The position numbers and the translations under genes were made by a program. This document shows positions 3,368 through 13,367 of a stretch of 41,474 bases of DNA, piece after piece (the first letter of the stretch is position 1; each line of letters opens with the position of its first letter). The notes under the pieces were generated by a model. The model did not search any database. It had not been told where the DNA came from and saw nothing but the letters and a program-made list of their open reading frames with translations. Source of the stretch: Candidatus Thorarchaeota archaeon (lineage in GTDB: Archaea > Asgardarchaeota > Thorarchaeia > Thorarchaeales > Thorarchaeaceae); NCBI GenBank assembly GCA_020348985.1, contig CP070761.1, positions 56,449 to 97,922 on the forward strand. Reading direction: 5' to 3'.

Positions 3368-3508
3368 TCAGAAGCTGCTCCTTAGTGATTTCCTGCTCAA
3401 ATCTATCGATGTTCGGGGTTCATTTTTCGGGCCAATAATGTCATGACAAAGCTTTTTTTCTGTCTTACCCTCTCCACGGGATACGGGACACACGACAGCA
3501 ATGGAAGT

Positions 3509-3823
3509 ATGCCAATGACCACCATGCCCAAACGCGAGATATTCGAGCAAATAATACAGCGAATCACGAGTCAATTCCCCAACGTATATGCCGCGCTTTT
3601 CATCAGCCCAGAAGGATTCCCCATCAACACATGGGGCCTTTCAATGGAGCGTGCTGAAGAGGTTGCTGCACTTCTGAGTTCTCTCATCGGGAAGACAAAG
3701 GAGGTCATCAAGCAGGTAAAAGAAGGAGGAAGCCTGCATTTCATACAGATTCAGACTGATATGGGCGGAATCAGAATAGCCCCACAAGAAGAATTCATTC
3801 TCGTGACATTGACAAAGACTTGA
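3509..3823 (+). CDS. Roadblock/LC7-domain protein
   Basis: About 100 aa with the pattern VYAALFISPEGFPI...EEVAALLSSL...LHFIQIQTDMGGIRIAP..EFILVTLT, typical of Roadblock/LC7. The start is uncertain (ATGs at 3443, 3509, 3515, 3524). Confidence 0.85.
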   Translation: MPMTTMPKREIFEQIIQRITSQFPNVYAALFISPEGFPINTWGLSMERAEEVAALLSSLIGKTKEVIKQVKEGGSLHFIQIQTDMGGIRIAPQEEFILVTLTKT

Positions 3824-10258: not shown

Positions 10259-10795
10259 CTAGCGATGTTTGAACTCCACGATGACAATGGATGCAATTAT
10301 CATTGCTACGATGATTCCCAATATCGGAGGCATCCAGTTCAGGAATATTCCGAAGTACGTCAGGATTACAGACGGATCTAGTACGATTGTGACCAGATGG
10401 GCGAAAATCAAAAGGAACCCATAGACTGCAAAGATCGGATAGAGGATGGGGCCTCCAGTTATGGTCAGTAGGAGTATGAATACAGCCAGCTTGTGCTTTG
10501 TTGGATCTAGAAGTGGGATTGATATGGACTCATCATCACCCAACTGGAAATAGTAGGCAATAAGCAAGGTGGGCATTCGTATTCTAATCAGTTCGAGGAC
10601 TTGGACTCCTAGCTGCACTGATAGAAGAAGGAAAGCGTTAGTCAGCATGTAGGCAAGGACCAATGCATTCAGGATTGGAAGATTCTCGTCGAAGAGCTGA
10701 ATGCTCTCAATGACGCCCACTAGAACGCAGAAGTTCAGAAAGAAGAGTGCCAGGTGACCAACTGCTCCAGTAATTAGACGTCTACTCTGCACCAT
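10259..10795 (-). CDS. Hypothetical integral membrane protein (about 4 TM)
   Basis: 178 aa dominated by hydrophobic helices. It sits in a run with the GTPase and reductase genes. Confidence 0.75.
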   Translation of the reverse strand: MVQSRRLITGAVGHLALFFLNFCVLVGVIESIQLFDENLPILNALVLAYMLTNAFLLLSVQLGVQVLELIRIRMPTLLIAYYFQLGDDESISIPLLDPTKHKLAVFILLLTITGGPILYPIFAVYGFLLIFAHLVTIVLDPSVILTYFGIFLNWMPPILGIIVAMIIASIVIVEFKHR

Positions 10796-10815: not shown

Positions 10816-11412
10816 CTACGGGGTTCTAAATGAAGGCATAGACTCTCCCTCAGGGAGGGTTGCCAATGGACCCATAGACTTGTGTCGCTGTATTGCGCGT
10901 GTTATGAGCTGATTGAATAGATGATTAACGTTTTCCCCCGTCTTCGCAGAGGACTCAAAGTAGAGCACGTCAAGCCAATTCTGAATCATTGCACCAGCTT
11001 CTGCAGGAACCAGACGATCTGGTCTGTCAATCTTGTTGGCTACAACGGCAACCACCGCATTTGGACAGACAGTCACAAACTTTGTGTACCACTCACCGAT
11101 GTCCAGGAAAGTCTGTGGCCTAGTCACATCAAATACTATTATGGCCATGCTCGCACCAGCCATGTATCTTCGCCTGAGCTCATTGTAGGTTGGCTGGCCA
11201 GCCAGATCCCATAACACAATCCTGGCCGAAACATCTGAGCCATCGGGCAGTCGAATCTCTTGATTCTTCAGAGCGAATGTTGTGCCAATTGTCATGATAT
11301 AGTCTTCGCTGAAACTGTCCTCGGTAAAACGCCGTATGCAACTGGTCTTGCCTACTGCTCCATCTCCGAGAGCAACCAGCTTGAACATGTGGCTTATCTG
11401 TTCTGAGGACAC
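10816..11412 (-). CDS. Ras-superfamily (Rab-like) small GTPase
   Basis: G1 GDGAVGKT, G2 TIG, G3 WDLAGQ, G4 NKID, G5 SSAK. No C-terminal Cys prenylation motif. Confidence 0.95.
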   Translation of the reverse strand: MSSEQISHMFKLVALGDGAVGKTSCIRRFTEDSFSEDYIMTIGTTFALKNQEIRLPDGSDVSARIVLWDLAGQPTYNELRRRYMAGASMAIIVFDVTRPQTFLDIGEWYTKFVTVCPNAVVAVVANKIDRPDRLVPAEAGAMIQNWLDVLYFESSAKTGENVNHLFNQLITRAIQRHKSMGPLATLPEGESMPSFRTP

Positions 11413-11460: not shown

Positions 11461-11494
11461 GCATTTAATGGTTCTTGGCATTTAATGATTCTGG
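11461..11494. repeat. 17-bp imperfect tandem repeat (x2) in a divergent promoter region
   Basis: GCATTTAATGGTTCTTG / GCATTTAATGATTCTGG (15/17 identical). Each copy contains the palindrome CATT-T-AATG. Confidence 0.7.
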
Positions 11495-11602
11495 GAAAAC
11501 CGAGCCATGGTTGAATAATGGCTGAGGGACTCATAAGACAAACCCTTTTCTTGACTTTTTTTCATGGGTTCACTCGAGCCACGGATTAAGAGGTGGATTG
11601 GG

Positions 11603-12337
11603 ATGGCAGAAGAATTCCTGGGCAGACTCACAAAACTCGAAGAACGGCTGGAAAAACTGGATGAATCCCTAAAACGAATGATCACAGTCCTGGGCGAGGT
11701 TACCGAGGTCAAATCTGAGATACGGGTGGCAAAGGACGAAATTATTGAAGCATTAAAGAGTCAGGCCCCTGCAGAGCCGACGACTCCAGCAACCGAGGAG
11801 CTGTTGCAGGCAATCAAGACAGAGATACAGGGCATCCAGGCGGGAGGCGCCTCAGATGAAGCCCTCCAAGCACTCAGTGCCAGATTCGAGGAGTTCAGCA
11901 CACAGGTCACGCAGATGTTTGAAGCAGTAAGAGTAGACCTAACTGCGGCCATGGCAGTGGCACCGCAACCTGCTGCTCCAGTCTCAGCTCCAGCGCCAGC
12001 ACCAACGGAAGCACCTGCGGCAGCGGCTGAAGAACCAGTTGCTGGGTCTCCAGCAGCCGGTCTCTCGTTAGACGTAATGATGAGAATCGCTGAACACCTT
12101 GACGGCATGATTGAGTCGCTCAAGATGGGATGTAAAGCTGGACCAGTTCTTGATATGATGACAGAGTCCAGAGAAGAAATCCTGAAGATTGTACCCAGTG
12201 ATCAGATTACTATTCGGATTGACAAGTGGATTGGTGTGGTAGGCGCATATCCCAAACGTAATGAGCTGCAGGCAAAGGACATTCTGAAACTTAAGAAGGA
12301 AATCAAAGCAGAAATCCCTAAGTATCGTCCTGCCTAG
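11603..12337 (+). CDS. Coiled-coil protein with Ala/Pro linker and C-terminal four-helix domain (Vps28 C-terminal domain-like)
   Basis: Heptad-like N-terminus (LTKLEERLEKLDESLKRM), an AP-rich linker and a helical ~85-aa C-terminal domain. The Vps28 resemblance is by eye. ATG 11603 is preferred over 11564. Confidence 0.6.
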   Translation: MAEEFLGRLTKLEERLEKLDESLKRMITVLGEVTEVKSEIRVAKDEIIEALKSQAPAEPTTPATEELLQAIKTEIQGIQAGGASDEALQALSARFEEFSTQVTQMFEAVRVDLTAAMAVAPQPAAPVSAPAPAPTEAPAAAAEEPVAGSPAAGLSLDVMMRIAEHLDGMIESLKMGCKAGPVLDMMTESREEILKIVPSDQITIRIDKWIGVVGAYPKRNELQAKDILKLKKEIKAEIPKYRPA

Positions 12338-12744
12338 TCTTCGTCATCTGGAACTCCAGCGGCGATTACCTTCATTCTAGCCAGAATCCGAATAACATCA
12401 GCAGCAGTTACTATTCCGATTATGTCGTGACCTTCTATGACTGGAAGGTATTTCTTGCCTGTCGAGTCCATGACAGAAACAGCCTGGCCAAGGTCAGCGT
12501 CTGGTGAAATCGTCACAACTGGACTTGCCATGATGTCTTCCAAGGTGAGAGTACTGTAGACCTCGTCCGAGAGAAGTCTGGCGCAAATGATGTCCCTTTG
12601 TGTGACAATGCCTTCCAACACTTCACCACGAGTCACAATCAGACTTCCTATATCCTCAGCCGCCATCAGCTTTATAGCTTCTGAAACGGGCGTTTCAATC
12701 TCGGCCGTTATGATGACAGAAGTCATGAAGTCCCTGACCCTCAT
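12334..12744 (-). CDS. CBS-domain pair protein
   Basis: Two CBS repeats: VRDFMT..VIT...IGSLIV...GIVTQRDI and LEDIM.SPVVTISPD...LPVI...IGIVTAADV. Confidence 0.92.
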   Translation of the reverse strand: MRVRDFMTSVIITAEIETPVSEAIKLMAAEDIGSLIVTRGEVLEGIVTQRDIICARLLSDEVYSTLTLEDIMASPVVTISPDADLGQAVSVMDSTGKKYLPVIEGHDIIGIVTAADVIRILARMKVIAAGVPDDED

Positions 12745-12776: not shown

Positions 12777-13367
12777 CTACATTGTCGGCCCGCGCCCTTC
12801 CTCCTTCACCTTATCCATTATCATGTGTGCTAGTCGGATAAAGGCTTTCTCTACTTCAACACCCGTTTTTGCAGAAGTCTCGAAGTACTCTGCTTGGAAC
12901 CAGTCTCTGAGCATGTAACCAGGCTCATTTGGAACCATTCTTTGGTCTTCTAAGTCTACCTTGTTGGCGCAAATCACCACAGCTGCGTCTGGACACACCT
13001 CTCTGAAACTTGAGAACCAGGTATTCATTGCCATGTAGGTCTCAGGTCGAGTCACGTCATAGGCAATAATGGCACCCGACGCACCCTTCATGAACTGGCG
13101 ACGAAGTTCTCTGTAGGTGGCTTGCCCGCCCATATCCCAGAGAACCAAACGAACCTTCCTCGAGTGTCCACCCTCATACTCAAGTTCAACATCCTTGGAT
13201 GCAAAGGTTGTGCCAATGGTGGCCTTGTACTCCTCATCAAATGCGTTCTCGGTATACCGTCGAAGTAACGAGGTCTTGCCAACGGCAGCCTCTCCAAGCG
13301 CCACAACGCGGAATTTGAATCCATCAAAGACGTCAGTTTCATTGGGTTGGTTCCGGGCACCACTCAT
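12777..13367 (-). CDS. Ras-superfamily (Rab-like) small GTPase
   Basis: G1 GEAAVGKT, G2 TIG, G3 WDMGGQ, G4 NKVD, G5 TSAK. No C-terminal Cys motif. Confidence 0.95.
   Translation of the reverse strand: MSGARNQPNETDVFDGFKFRVVALGEAAVGKTSLLRRYTENAFDEEYKATIGTTFASKDVELEYEGGHSRKVRLVLWDMGGQATYRELRRQFMKGASGAIIAYDVTRPETYMAMNTWFSSFREVCPDAAVVICANKVDLEDQRMVPNEPGYMLRDWFQAEYFETSAKTGVEVEKAFIRLAHMIMDKVKEEGRGPTM

What the first reader, a model, noticed from the sequence alone, without database searches (positions are those of the whole stretch)
11603..12337. Possible cryptic ESCRT-I component: Vps28 C-terminal-domain-like protein
Seen: coiled coil, AP-rich tether, then LDGMIESLKMGCKAG..VLDMMTE..EEILKI..RIDKWIGVVGAYPKRNELQAKDILKLKKEI. 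From my memory of the family, the Vps28 C-terminal four-helix bundle reads roughly FITLMDALKLNM.A..QLHPLL.DL..SL..KV..WL..LN.M.ASDEL...Q.RQL.FDL. The LK-hydrophobic..A, Trp and EL positions line up with the same spacing. Known: the Vps28 CTD is a flexibly tethered domain linking ESCRT-I to ESCRT-II/III. A divergent copy outside an ESCRT cluster, between two Rab-like GTPases, would be notable, especially if this lineage is scored as lacking ESCRT-I (to be verified).
Basis: inference. Interest (0 to 1): 0.7.

Follow-up and report, generated by a model that had tools for sequence, protein, structure and literature searches.

The report
Coiled-coil protein with Vps28-like tail domain
This Thorarchaeota gene encodes a small coiled-coil protein whose flexibly tethered end domain is a very divergent copy of the C-terminal domain of the ESCRT-I protein Vps28, but it is not Vps28 itself, and a role in ESCRT membrane remodelling remains unproven.

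Summary
The gene is real: 11603-12337 (+), 244 aa, with a GAGGTG ribosome-binding site 7 nt upstream. It was found in 42 of 43 sampled genomes of its family and 1 of 1 of the sister family, and in essentially no other Asgard genome.

- **Sequence:** this family alone gives no significant Vps28 signal. It is clearly related to three sister families with the same architecture, two in this genome and one in Odin-lineage archaea. The merged C-domain profile matches Asgard Vps28 C-domains end to end (hhalign 94-95%, E about 1e-7, more than 6 SD above shuffles).
- **Not a Vps28 orthologue:** the N-terminus shows no similarity to the Vps28 core. In this lineage that core is fused to Vps22, which is already published. 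ESCRT-I is not missing here.
- **Function:** an ESCRT or Rab-like GTPase link is inferred only.

First readers of this scan flagged the same family in other genomes. Verdict: a new member of the known class of Asgard Vps28_C-domain proteins.

The parts
11590..11595 (+). Shine-Dalgarno-like GAGGTG, 7 nt before the ATG at 11603
   Evidence: Sequence read directly. It supports 11603 rather than 11564 as the start, as does the conserved MAE start of all homologues.
11603..12337 (+). Whole gene: 244-aa coiled-coil / linker / Vps28_C-like protein, stop codon included
   Evidence: ORF. More than 238 homologues in Thorarchaeota. Present in 42/43 family genomes and 1/1 of the sister family.
11603..11761 (+). 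N-terminal conserved heptad coiled-coil helix (residues 1-53)
   Evidence: AF2 helix 2-53, pLDDT 87-91. Near-invariant columns. Heptad register with 81% hydrophobic a/d positions. The motif is shared with the sister families. No similarity to the Vps28 N-domain.
11783..11953 (+). Variable helical middle region (residues 61-117)
   Evidence: AF2 helices 62-79 and 85-117, pLDDT 59-77. Poorly conserved, with indels.
11954..12067 (+). Ala/Pro-rich disordered tether (residues 118-155)
   Evidence: pLDDT 40-47 with no secondary structure. Length and sequence vary among homologues.
12068..12325 (+). C-terminal four-helix bundle, Vps28_C-like (residues 156-241)
12311..12334 (+). Conserved extreme C-terminal motif EIPKYRPA (residues 237-244)
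   Evidence: Invariant or near-invariant columns E237, I238, P239, K240, Y241, P243, A244. Role unknown.
10816..11412 (-). Divergently transcribed Ras/Rab-like GTPase (198 aa)
   Evidence: Pfam Ras E 2.7e-39. The adjacency is kept in every locus not cut by a contig end, and in the most divergent homologue.
10259..10795 (-). 178-aa protein downstream of that GTPase, no Pfam family; hydrophobic, apparently multi-pass membrane
   Evidence: Hydrophobic translation. No Pfam hit. Conserved neighbour.
12334..12744 (-). Convergent CBS-pair protein gene; its stop codon overlaps the stop codon of the gene under study
   Evidence: Pfam CBS E 2.6e-25. Conserved neighbour in most Thorarchaeota loci.
12777..13367 (-). 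Second Ras/Rab-like GTPase (196 aa)
   Evidence: Pfam Ras E 3.6e-44. Conserved neighbour.

Best explanation
The gene encodes a Thorarchaeales-specific protein with three parts. An N-terminal heptad helix of about 50 residues probably oligomerises as a coiled coil. It is followed by a variable helical stretch and an Ala/Pro-rich disordered tether. The protein ends in a compact four-helix bundle that is a highly divergent homologue of the Vps28 C-terminal domain (Vps28_C). It is one of at least three paralogous 'coiled coil - tether - Vps28_C-like' families in this genome; a fourth occurs in Odin-lineage archaea. It is not Vps28, because it lacks the Vps28 core domain, which in this lineage is fused to Vps22.

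Inferred mechanism: the coiled coil fixes the protein as an oligomer at some cellular site, and the tethered bundles act as docking modules. By analogy with Vps28_C, which binds ESCRT-II, the bundle would recruit the Thorarchaeal ESCRT-I/II assembly (the Zn-ribbon/PH/steadiness-box protein and the Vps28N-Vps22 fusion) without a canonical ESCRT-I. The neighbouring Rab-like GTPase and membrane protein are candidate determinants of the site.

Shown here: gene reality, architecture, fold, family relationships and the profile link to Vps28_C. Inferred only: oligomerisation, any ESCRT binding and any GTPase link.
For: - **Architecture and fold:** AF2 models, (CTD pLDDT 91, pTM 0.81).
- **Structure searches:** Vps28 CTDs rank first in each.
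  - Foldseek PDB: 2j9w, TM 0.63-0.68.
  - ESM Atlas: eukaryotic VPS28 clusters at TM 0.70, rmsd 2.7 over 89 residues, plus Lokiarchaeial PCI/UFL1/DDRGK proteins of about 790 aa, the size class in which Pfam finds a Vps28 C-terminal match.
- **Sister families:** this family against the 172-aa paralogue gives hhalign 97.5%, against the Odin family 92%, and against the 317-aa family 89%. All share the N-terminal helix motif.
- **Link to Vps28_C:** the merged C-domain profile against Asgard Vps28 CTD gives 88% (E 3e-6). With a wider Vps28 set it gives 94% (E 1e-7) over 93 columns. The tool's hhalign on an independently built Vps28 CTD alignment gives 94.7% (E 6e-8).
- **Controls:** the reversed profile scores 13 and 7-column block shuffles 17.3 +/- 4.2 (max 30.1), against 44.3 observed. 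Cross-domain negative controls score 11-17.
- **Direct HMM link:** a plain Vps28-CTD HMM finds the 317-aa sister protein as its best hit in this genome (E 0.015).
- **Lineage background:** canonical Vps28 (PF03997) passes its cut-off in 134 of 201 sampled Asgard genomes. In this family only sub-threshold hits were seen, in 12 of 43. The Vps28 N-domain is instead fused to Vps22 (hhalign 97.3%, E 2e-11).
- **Literature:** Vps28_C is described as a mobile module in Asgard proteins, proposed to reach ESCRT-II without core ESCRT-I (PMC11188069).
Against: - This family's own profile against Vps28 CTD is at noise level (3.8-5.4%, E 0.007-0.011). The link is therefore transitive, through sister families.
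- Pfam and PDB sequence searches give no Vps28 hit.
- The gene lies about 250 kb from the ESCRT cluster, taking the single contig as circular.
- None of the sister families sits beside ESCRT genes.
- The neighbourhood is a frozen block that also holds RadA, geranylgeranyl reductase and PheRS, so adjacency to the GTPases may be inherited order only.
Confidence: 0.5

Rival explanations
1. It is a component of a small-GTPase module. In this reading it is a coiled-coil effector, tether or regulator of the two flanking Rab-like GTPases, together with the membrane protein and the CBS protein. Its four-helix bundle resembles Vps28_C by common descent or simple fold, but has no ESCRT role.
For: - The order membrane protein - GTPase (divergent) | this gene | CBS - GTPase is kept in 20 of 20 sampled Thorarchaeota loci, apart from cuts at contig ends.
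- The most divergent homologue (30% identity) and the sister-family genome keep the divergent GTPase plus membrane-protein pair although the other side is rearranged.
- The gene is not near ESCRT genes.
Against: - The conserved block also contains unrelated housekeeping genes (RadA, GGR, PheRS), so synteny may be inertia.
- The sister families share both the N-terminal helix and the C-domain but have no GTPase neighbours.
- No binding test was run.
Confidence: 0.28
2. It is the lineage's true, cryptic Vps28 orthologue: an ESCRT-I core subunit that joins the steadiness-box headpiece through its N-terminal helices.
For: - The length (244 aa) and the order helical N-part - flexible linker - four-helix C-domain mimic Vps28.
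- No canonical Vps28 passes the Pfam cut-off in this family.
Against: - The N-terminal profile against the Vps28 N-domain scores 8.8, which is noise.
- The Vps28 N-domain is present elsewhere, fused to Vps22.
- The Odin-lineage genome G039 has both a canonical Vps28 and a sister-family member.
- Three paralogous families coexist in this genome.
Confidence: 0.05
3. It is a generic helical protein with no relation to Vps28, for example a scaffold, or a membrane- or lipid-associated amphipathic protein. In this reading the profile link arises from shared helical periodicity and composition.
For: - Weak hits to apolipoprotein and other coiled-coil families.
- The family's own profile is not significant against Vps28.
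Against: - Periodicity-preserving block shuffles and reversed profiles score far lower.
- The alignment runs end to end and in register, pairing the helix-3 Trp and, in the sister families, the helix-4 Trp 28 residues later.
- Vps28 CTDs rank first in four searches spanning three libraries.
Confidence: 0.15

Closest known systems
Vps28 C-terminal domain (ESCRT-I; PDB 2J9U, 2J9V, 2G3K yeast, 2J9W Xenopus; C-terminal half of Pfam PF03997)
   Different: Sequence identity is only 8-13%. The family's own profile is not significant. The helix-4 Trp of Asgard Vps28 is Glu here, although the sister families keep it. Partner binding is untested.
Asgard proteins carrying a Vps28_C domain outside canonical Vps28, including separately encoded Vps28_C genes (Makarova et al. 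2024, PMC11188069)
   Same: A Vps28_C-like module without the steadiness-box or core domain, encoded away from the ESCRT cluster. That paper proposes such proteins reach ESCRT-II without core ESCRT-I.
   Different: The text of that paper names partners such as adaptin appendage, longin, TPR, Ig-like and PCI domains. Here the partner is a conserved short coiled coil plus an Ala/Pro tether. I could not check the paper's figures or tables to see whether this family is listed.
Thorarchaeal Vps22 with an N-terminal Vps28-core/steadiness-box domain (asCOG cog.002769; ThorAB25_09030 in PMC9192718)
   Same: It belongs to the same lineage-specific rearrangement of Vps28 parts. It holds the half of Vps28 that the protein studied here lacks.
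   Different: It is a different gene (genome position 2,969,431-2,970,195), with no C-terminal bundle, and it lies inside the ESCRT cluster.
Coiled-coil Rab/Arl effectors of eukaryotes (golgin-type tethers)
   Same: A coiled coil plus a small C-terminal helical domain, encoded here next to Rab-like GTPases.
   Different: No sequence or fold match to GRIP, GAT or Rab-binding domains was seen. The protein is far shorter. The analogy rests on gene neighbourhood only.

Membership tests
Vps28 (ESCRT-I subunit, Pfam PF03997) | N-terminal core (steadiness-box-type helical hairpin) that joins the ESCRT-I headpiece | tested here: not met
   The N-terminal profile of this and the sister families against the Asgard Vps28 N-domain gives hhalign score 8.8, probability 0.1%. 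The same Vps28 N-domain profile finds Vps22 residues 11-89 in this genome at 97.3%, E 2e-11.
Vps28 (ESCRT-I subunit, Pfam PF03997) | Match to the Pfam VPS28 model above its gathering score | tested here: not met
   No PF03997 hit at E <= 1. The whole-genome scan with PF03997 does not report this ORF at E <= 10.
Vps28 (ESCRT-I subunit, Pfam PF03997) | C-terminal four-helix bundle with the Vps28_C fold | tested here: met
Vps28 (ESCRT-I subunit, Pfam PF03997) | Sequence-profile homology of the C-domain to Vps28_C | tested here: inconclusive
   This family alone: 3.8-5.4%, E 0.007-0.011. Merged with three sister families: 94-95%, E 6e-8 to 1e-7, full length, more than 6 SD above block shuffles. 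The link for this family is transitive.
Vps28 (ESCRT-I subunit, Pfam PF03997) | Binding of the C-domain to ESCRT-II (or ESCRT-III Vps20) | not testable with these tools
   It needs pull-down, two-hybrid or a solved complex. No usable computational verdict was obtained.
Vps28 (ESCRT-I subunit, Pfam PF03997) | Gene placed with other ESCRT genes, as is usual for Asgard vps28 | tested here: not met
   The ESCRT cluster is at 2.969-2.975 Mb of the single contig. This gene is at about 68 kb.
Asgard accessory proteins with a Vps28_C module (PMC11188069) | A Vps28_C-like domain present without the Vps28 core, combined with other modules | tested here: met
   C-domain as above. The N-terminal module is a conserved coiled coil. 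Three such families occur in this genome.
Small-GTPase effector or regulator | Conserved gene neighbourhood with a small GTPase | tested here: met
   20 of 20 sampled loci, plus the divergent homologue. However, the block also holds housekeeping genes.
Small-GTPase effector or regulator | Nucleotide-state-dependent binding to the GTPase | not tested

The most novel reading that the evidence does not exclude
In Thorarchaeales the ancestral Vps28 was taken apart. Its core domain was welded to Vps22. The ESCRT-docking C-domain now lives on a set of short coiled-coil adaptors, three families per genome, that bring ESCRT to different sites. This one would be positioned by the adjacent Rab-like GTPase and its membrane partner. 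That would be a prokaryotic coupling of a Rab-type switch to ESCRT recruitment.
Probability: 0.12. Interest if true: 0.75.

Novelty: new member of a known kind. Interest (0 to 1): 0.45.

Why it matters
[quoted passage not shown] Thorarchaeota in particular show no canonical Vps28 and no ubiquitin.

This work shows that every sampled Thorarchaeales genome keeps a Vps28_C-like domain on small coiled-coil proteins that standard annotation calls 'hypothetical'. That gives concrete, testable candidates for how ESCRT is recruited in this lineage. It also adds an unannotated architecture to the published picture of Vps28_C as a mobile docking module.

If the neighbouring Rab-like GTPases prove to be partners, it would link two eukaryote-like trafficking systems in an archaeon.

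Tried and rejected
- **Pfam scan of the protein:** only sub-threshold coiled-coil noise.
- **PDB sequence searches:** HMM profiles of the full family, the C-domain and the merged C-domain found no Vps28, only apolipoproteins, eL22 and designed helical proteins.
- **hhalign of this family alone against Asgard Vps28:** not significant.
- **ESM Atlas search by language-model features:** best hit 0.81, an unnamed Asgard cluster. Uninformative.
- **Complex prediction:** the C-domain as partner with the steadiness-box protein and the Vps28N-Vps22 fusion, all given as alignments. No verdict: score 0.16 against a mark of 0.32, and controls were not run. This is neither for nor against binding.
- **The 412-aa protein as the 'real' Thorarchaeal Vps28:** it has the only Pfam VPS28 hit in this genome (E 0.005-0.012) and may be the 'BAR-Vps28 fusion' of PMC10307638. 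Rejected as a Vps28 homologue, because a 24-sequence profile gives 0.3% against Vps28.
- **Eukaryotic Vps28 sequences for an independent profile:** not obtained. The last homologue search returned only Asgard proteins.
- **Similarity to other ESCRT proteins:** the N-terminal helix and the C-domain against the steadiness-box protein and the Vps22 fusion gave noise.

Full report
**The gene**

The window comes from a single-contig 3.16-Mb Thorarchaeota genome. A longer frame from 11564 is possible. Three things favour 11603:
- every homologue begins at the MAE encoded at 11603;
- a GAGGTG box lies 7 nt upstream;
- the collection's record of the window's own protein is the 244-aa form.

The family has more than 238 members at E <= 0.001, all labelled hypothetical and almost all Thorarchaeota. 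An exhaustive HMMER search of 1.8 billion cluster representatives found only 25 clusters, so the family is narrow. A survey of 201 Asgard genomes with the C-domain profile found it in 42/43 genomes of the window's own family and 1/1 of the sister family. Elsewhere only three weak hits appeared.

**Anatomy**

The alignment shows a near-invariant N-terminal block of about 50 residues, a variable middle, an Ala/Pro-rich stretch of variable length, and a very conserved C-terminal 90 residues ending in EIPKYRPA.

AlphaFold2 with this alignment gives:
- one long helix, residues 2-53 (pLDDT about 88-91);
- two less confident helices, 62-79 and 85-117;
- disorder across roughly residues 118-155;
- four helices, 156-241, at pLDDT about 97.

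The C-domain folded alone has pLDDT 91 and pTM 0.81. The N-terminal helix has an unbroken 3-4 heptad pattern, with 81% hydrophobic a/d positions.

**Is the C-domain Vps28-like? Structure**

- Foldseek against 350,542 PDB chains ranks Xenopus Vps28 CTD (2j9w) first, both for the whole model and for the domain model. E-values are only 0.07-0.3 and TM 0.63-0.69.
- In the ESM Atlas the nearest clusters include two eukaryotic VPS28 clusters (TM 0.70, rmsd 2.7 over 89 residues). They also include a Lokiarchaeial PCI/UFL1/DDRGK family of about 790 aa, the size class in which Pfam finds a Vps28 C-terminal match.

**Is the C-domain Vps28-like? Sequence**

Pfam VPS28 does not hit the protein. Profile-versus-PDB sequence searches do not either. 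I built an Asgard Vps28 alignment from 18 genomes whose genes pass the Pfam cut-off. This family alone against it gives hhalign 0.15-3.8% (E 0.011-0.4). The only alignment produced is C-domain to C-domain, in register. That is at the level of my cross-domain negative controls, which score 11-17.

The picture changed when the C-domain profile picked up relatives:
- a paralogue of about 172 aa in several Thorarchaeota, including this genome at 803,398-803,655;
- a family of about 317 aa, found in 42 of 46 Thorarchaeales genomes, here at 2,338,177-2,339,127;
- a family of about 200 aa in Odin-lineage genomes.

All have the same plan: a conserved N-terminal helix with a shared motif, a low-complexity linker and a C-terminal bundle.

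| Comparison (hhalign) | Probability |
|---|---|
| this family vs 172-aa paralogue | 97.5% |
| this family vs Odin family | 92% |
| this family vs 317-aa family | 89% |
| sister families among themselves | 89-96% |
| Odin family vs wider Vps28 CTD set | 93% |
| 317-aa family vs wider Vps28 CTD set | 78% |
| 172-aa paralogue vs wider Vps28 CTD set | 74% |
| merged profile vs wider Vps28 CTD set | 94% (E 1e-7, 93 columns) |
| merged (A4) vs independently built Vps28 CTD alignment (A7) | 94.7% (E 6e-8, 92 columns) |

The wider Vps28 set holds 39 sequences. Controls support the link. Reversed Vps28 columns score 13. One hundred full column shuffles score 11.1 +/- 2.2. Block shuffles that keep helical periodicity score 16-17 +/- 3-4 (max 30), against observed scores of 37-44.

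The sister families also keep a second Trp exactly 28 residues after the helix-3 Trp, as Asgard Vps28 does (direct reading). A plain HMM of Vps28 CTDs finds the 317-aa sister protein as its best hit in this genome (E 0.015).

I rate homology of this superfamily's C-domain with Vps28_C at about 0.8. The protein studied here is its most diverged branch.

**Why it is not Vps28**

- The N-terminal helix profile shows nothing against the Vps28 N-domain, the steadiness-box protein or Vps22.
- The Vps28 N-domain does exist in this genome, at residues 11-89 of the 254-aa Vps22 protein inside the ESCRT cluster (97.3%, E 2e-11).
- The sister-family genome's version even passes the Pfam VPS28 cut-off together with EAP30.
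- This fusion is published: Vps22 fused to a steadiness box, cog.002769 (PMC11188069). An earlier follow-up of this scan reached the same view.
- The cluster also holds Vps25, Vps4, an ESCRT-III gene and the 521-aa Zn-ribbon/PH-like/steadiness-box protein.

So ESCRT-I is not missing in this lineage. What is missing is a canonical Vps28: PF03997 passes its cut-off in 134 of 201 sampled Asgard genomes, but in the window's family only sub-threshold hits appear, in 12 of 43. Those hits fall on a universal 412-aa coiled-coil protein. As a 24-sequence profile it shows no similarity to Vps28 (0.3%).

The Odin-lineage genome G039 has both a canonical Vps28 and a sister-family member. The coiled-coil/Vps28_C-like architecture is therefore older than the Thorarchaeal rearrangement and is a paralogue line, not a replacement orthologue.

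**Context**

In 20 of 20 sampled Thorarchaeota loci from many genera the order is: RadA, geranylgeranyl reductase, membrane protein and GTPase on one side (divergent), this gene, then CBS protein, second GTPase and PheRS beta (convergent). The only departures are cuts at contig ends and the absence of CBS in two loci.

The most divergent homologue and the sister-family genome keep only the membrane protein plus GTPase pair beside the gene. That is mild support for a functional link. However, the block is frozen together with housekeeping genes, and the sister families sit in unrelated contexts without GTPase or ESCRT genes. The ESCRT cluster lies about 250 kb away if the contig is circular.

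**Mechanism**

Shown:
- a conserved oligomerisation-type helix;
- a flexible tether;
- a compact bundle with near-invariant surface and core positions.

Inferred, by analogy with Vps28_C (which docks on the Vps36 zinc finger or on ESCRT-II) and with the proposal in PMC11188069 for Asgard Vps28_C proteins: the bundle docks on the Thorarchaeal ESCRT-I/II assembly, and the coiled coil determines where. One complex-prediction job with the steadiness-box protein and the Vps22 fusion gave no verdict and counts for nothing either way. The alternative, that the protein serves the flanking Rab-like GTPases, is about half as likely in my estimate and is not exclusive of the ESCRT reading.

**Novelty and score**

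Vps28_C as a mobile Asgard module, sometimes encoded on its own, is published (PMC11188069). This particular coiled-coil architecture is Pfam-invisible and universal in Thorarchaeales with three families per genome. It is not mentioned in the text I could read, and I could not see that paper's figures or tables. I file it as a new member of a known kind, with interest 0.45.

First readers of this scan flagged the same family, and the two sister proteins of this genome, independently on other windows. I tested the sister proteins here.

Noticed in passing
L096:814-1767 (+) = genome 2,338,177-2,339,127; L001:1489-2727 (+): A 317-aa coiled-coil protein with a Vps28_C-like end was found in 42 of 46 Thorarchaeales genomes. 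Wherever both positions were listed it lies 1-2 kb from a 412-aa coiled-coil protein found in 44 of 46 genomes, with a D-aminoacyl-tRNA deacylase gene between them in this genome. The 412-aa protein carries the genome's only (sub-threshold) Pfam VPS28 hit, but as a profile it shows no similarity to Vps28.
   Followed up: partly
L095:1492-2010 (-) = genome about 803,389-803,907: A 172-aa paralogue with the same N-terminal helix motif and C-domain. In several genomes it is followed by a conserved protein of about 112-131 aa (motif ...FP.PY...I...W..WL) that, in this genome's copy, ends in a hydrophobic stretch. A cupin gene and a HAD-like gene lie upstream.
   Followed up: partly
L063:940-1539 (+); P0144-P0150: Odin-lineage genomes have a family of about 200 aa with the same architecture, beside an RDD-family membrane protein gene. 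Of the four families it is the closest to canonical Vps28_C (93%).
   Followed up: partly
L003:1207-1971 (+); L065:1607-2401 (+): The Vps22 of this genome and of the sister family carries the Vps28 N-terminal domain at its N-terminus. The sister-family version passes both the Pfam VPS28 and EAP30 cut-offs. This is already published as Vps22 fused to a steadiness box.
   Followed up: yes
L007:1453-3018 (-): The 521-aa steadiness-box protein has several invariant Cys pairs near its N-terminus and weak GRAM/PH hits at residues 270-315. This fits the published Znr_PH_CC_SB architecture. Yeast Vps28_C binds a zinc finger set in a PH-type domain, which makes this protein a candidate partner.
   Followed up: partly
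window 11461-11487: In the divergent intergenic region the 10-mer GCATTTAATG occurs twice, 17 bp apart (11461-11470 and 11478-11487). Each copy holds a TATA-like TTTAAT. They may be the two divergent promoters or a regulator site.
   Followed up: no
window 12311-12334: The extreme C-terminus EIPKYRPA is almost invariant across the family, beyond the last helix of the bundle. It may be a short linear binding motif.
   Followed up: no
genomes of family f9 (e.g. G165:C17:630243-630536): Lokiarchaeial proteins of about 790-820 aa show a Pfam VPS28 match restricted to the C-terminal half of the model. An Atlas cluster of that size (788-aa representative) carries PCI, UFL1-like and DDRGK domains. 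Together these hint at a UFM1-type ligase scaffold joined to an ESCRT docking module.
   Followed up: no
window 3443-3823 (+): A Roadblock/LC7 gene lies 7 kb upstream in the same conserved block as the two Rab-like GTPases.
   Followed up: no
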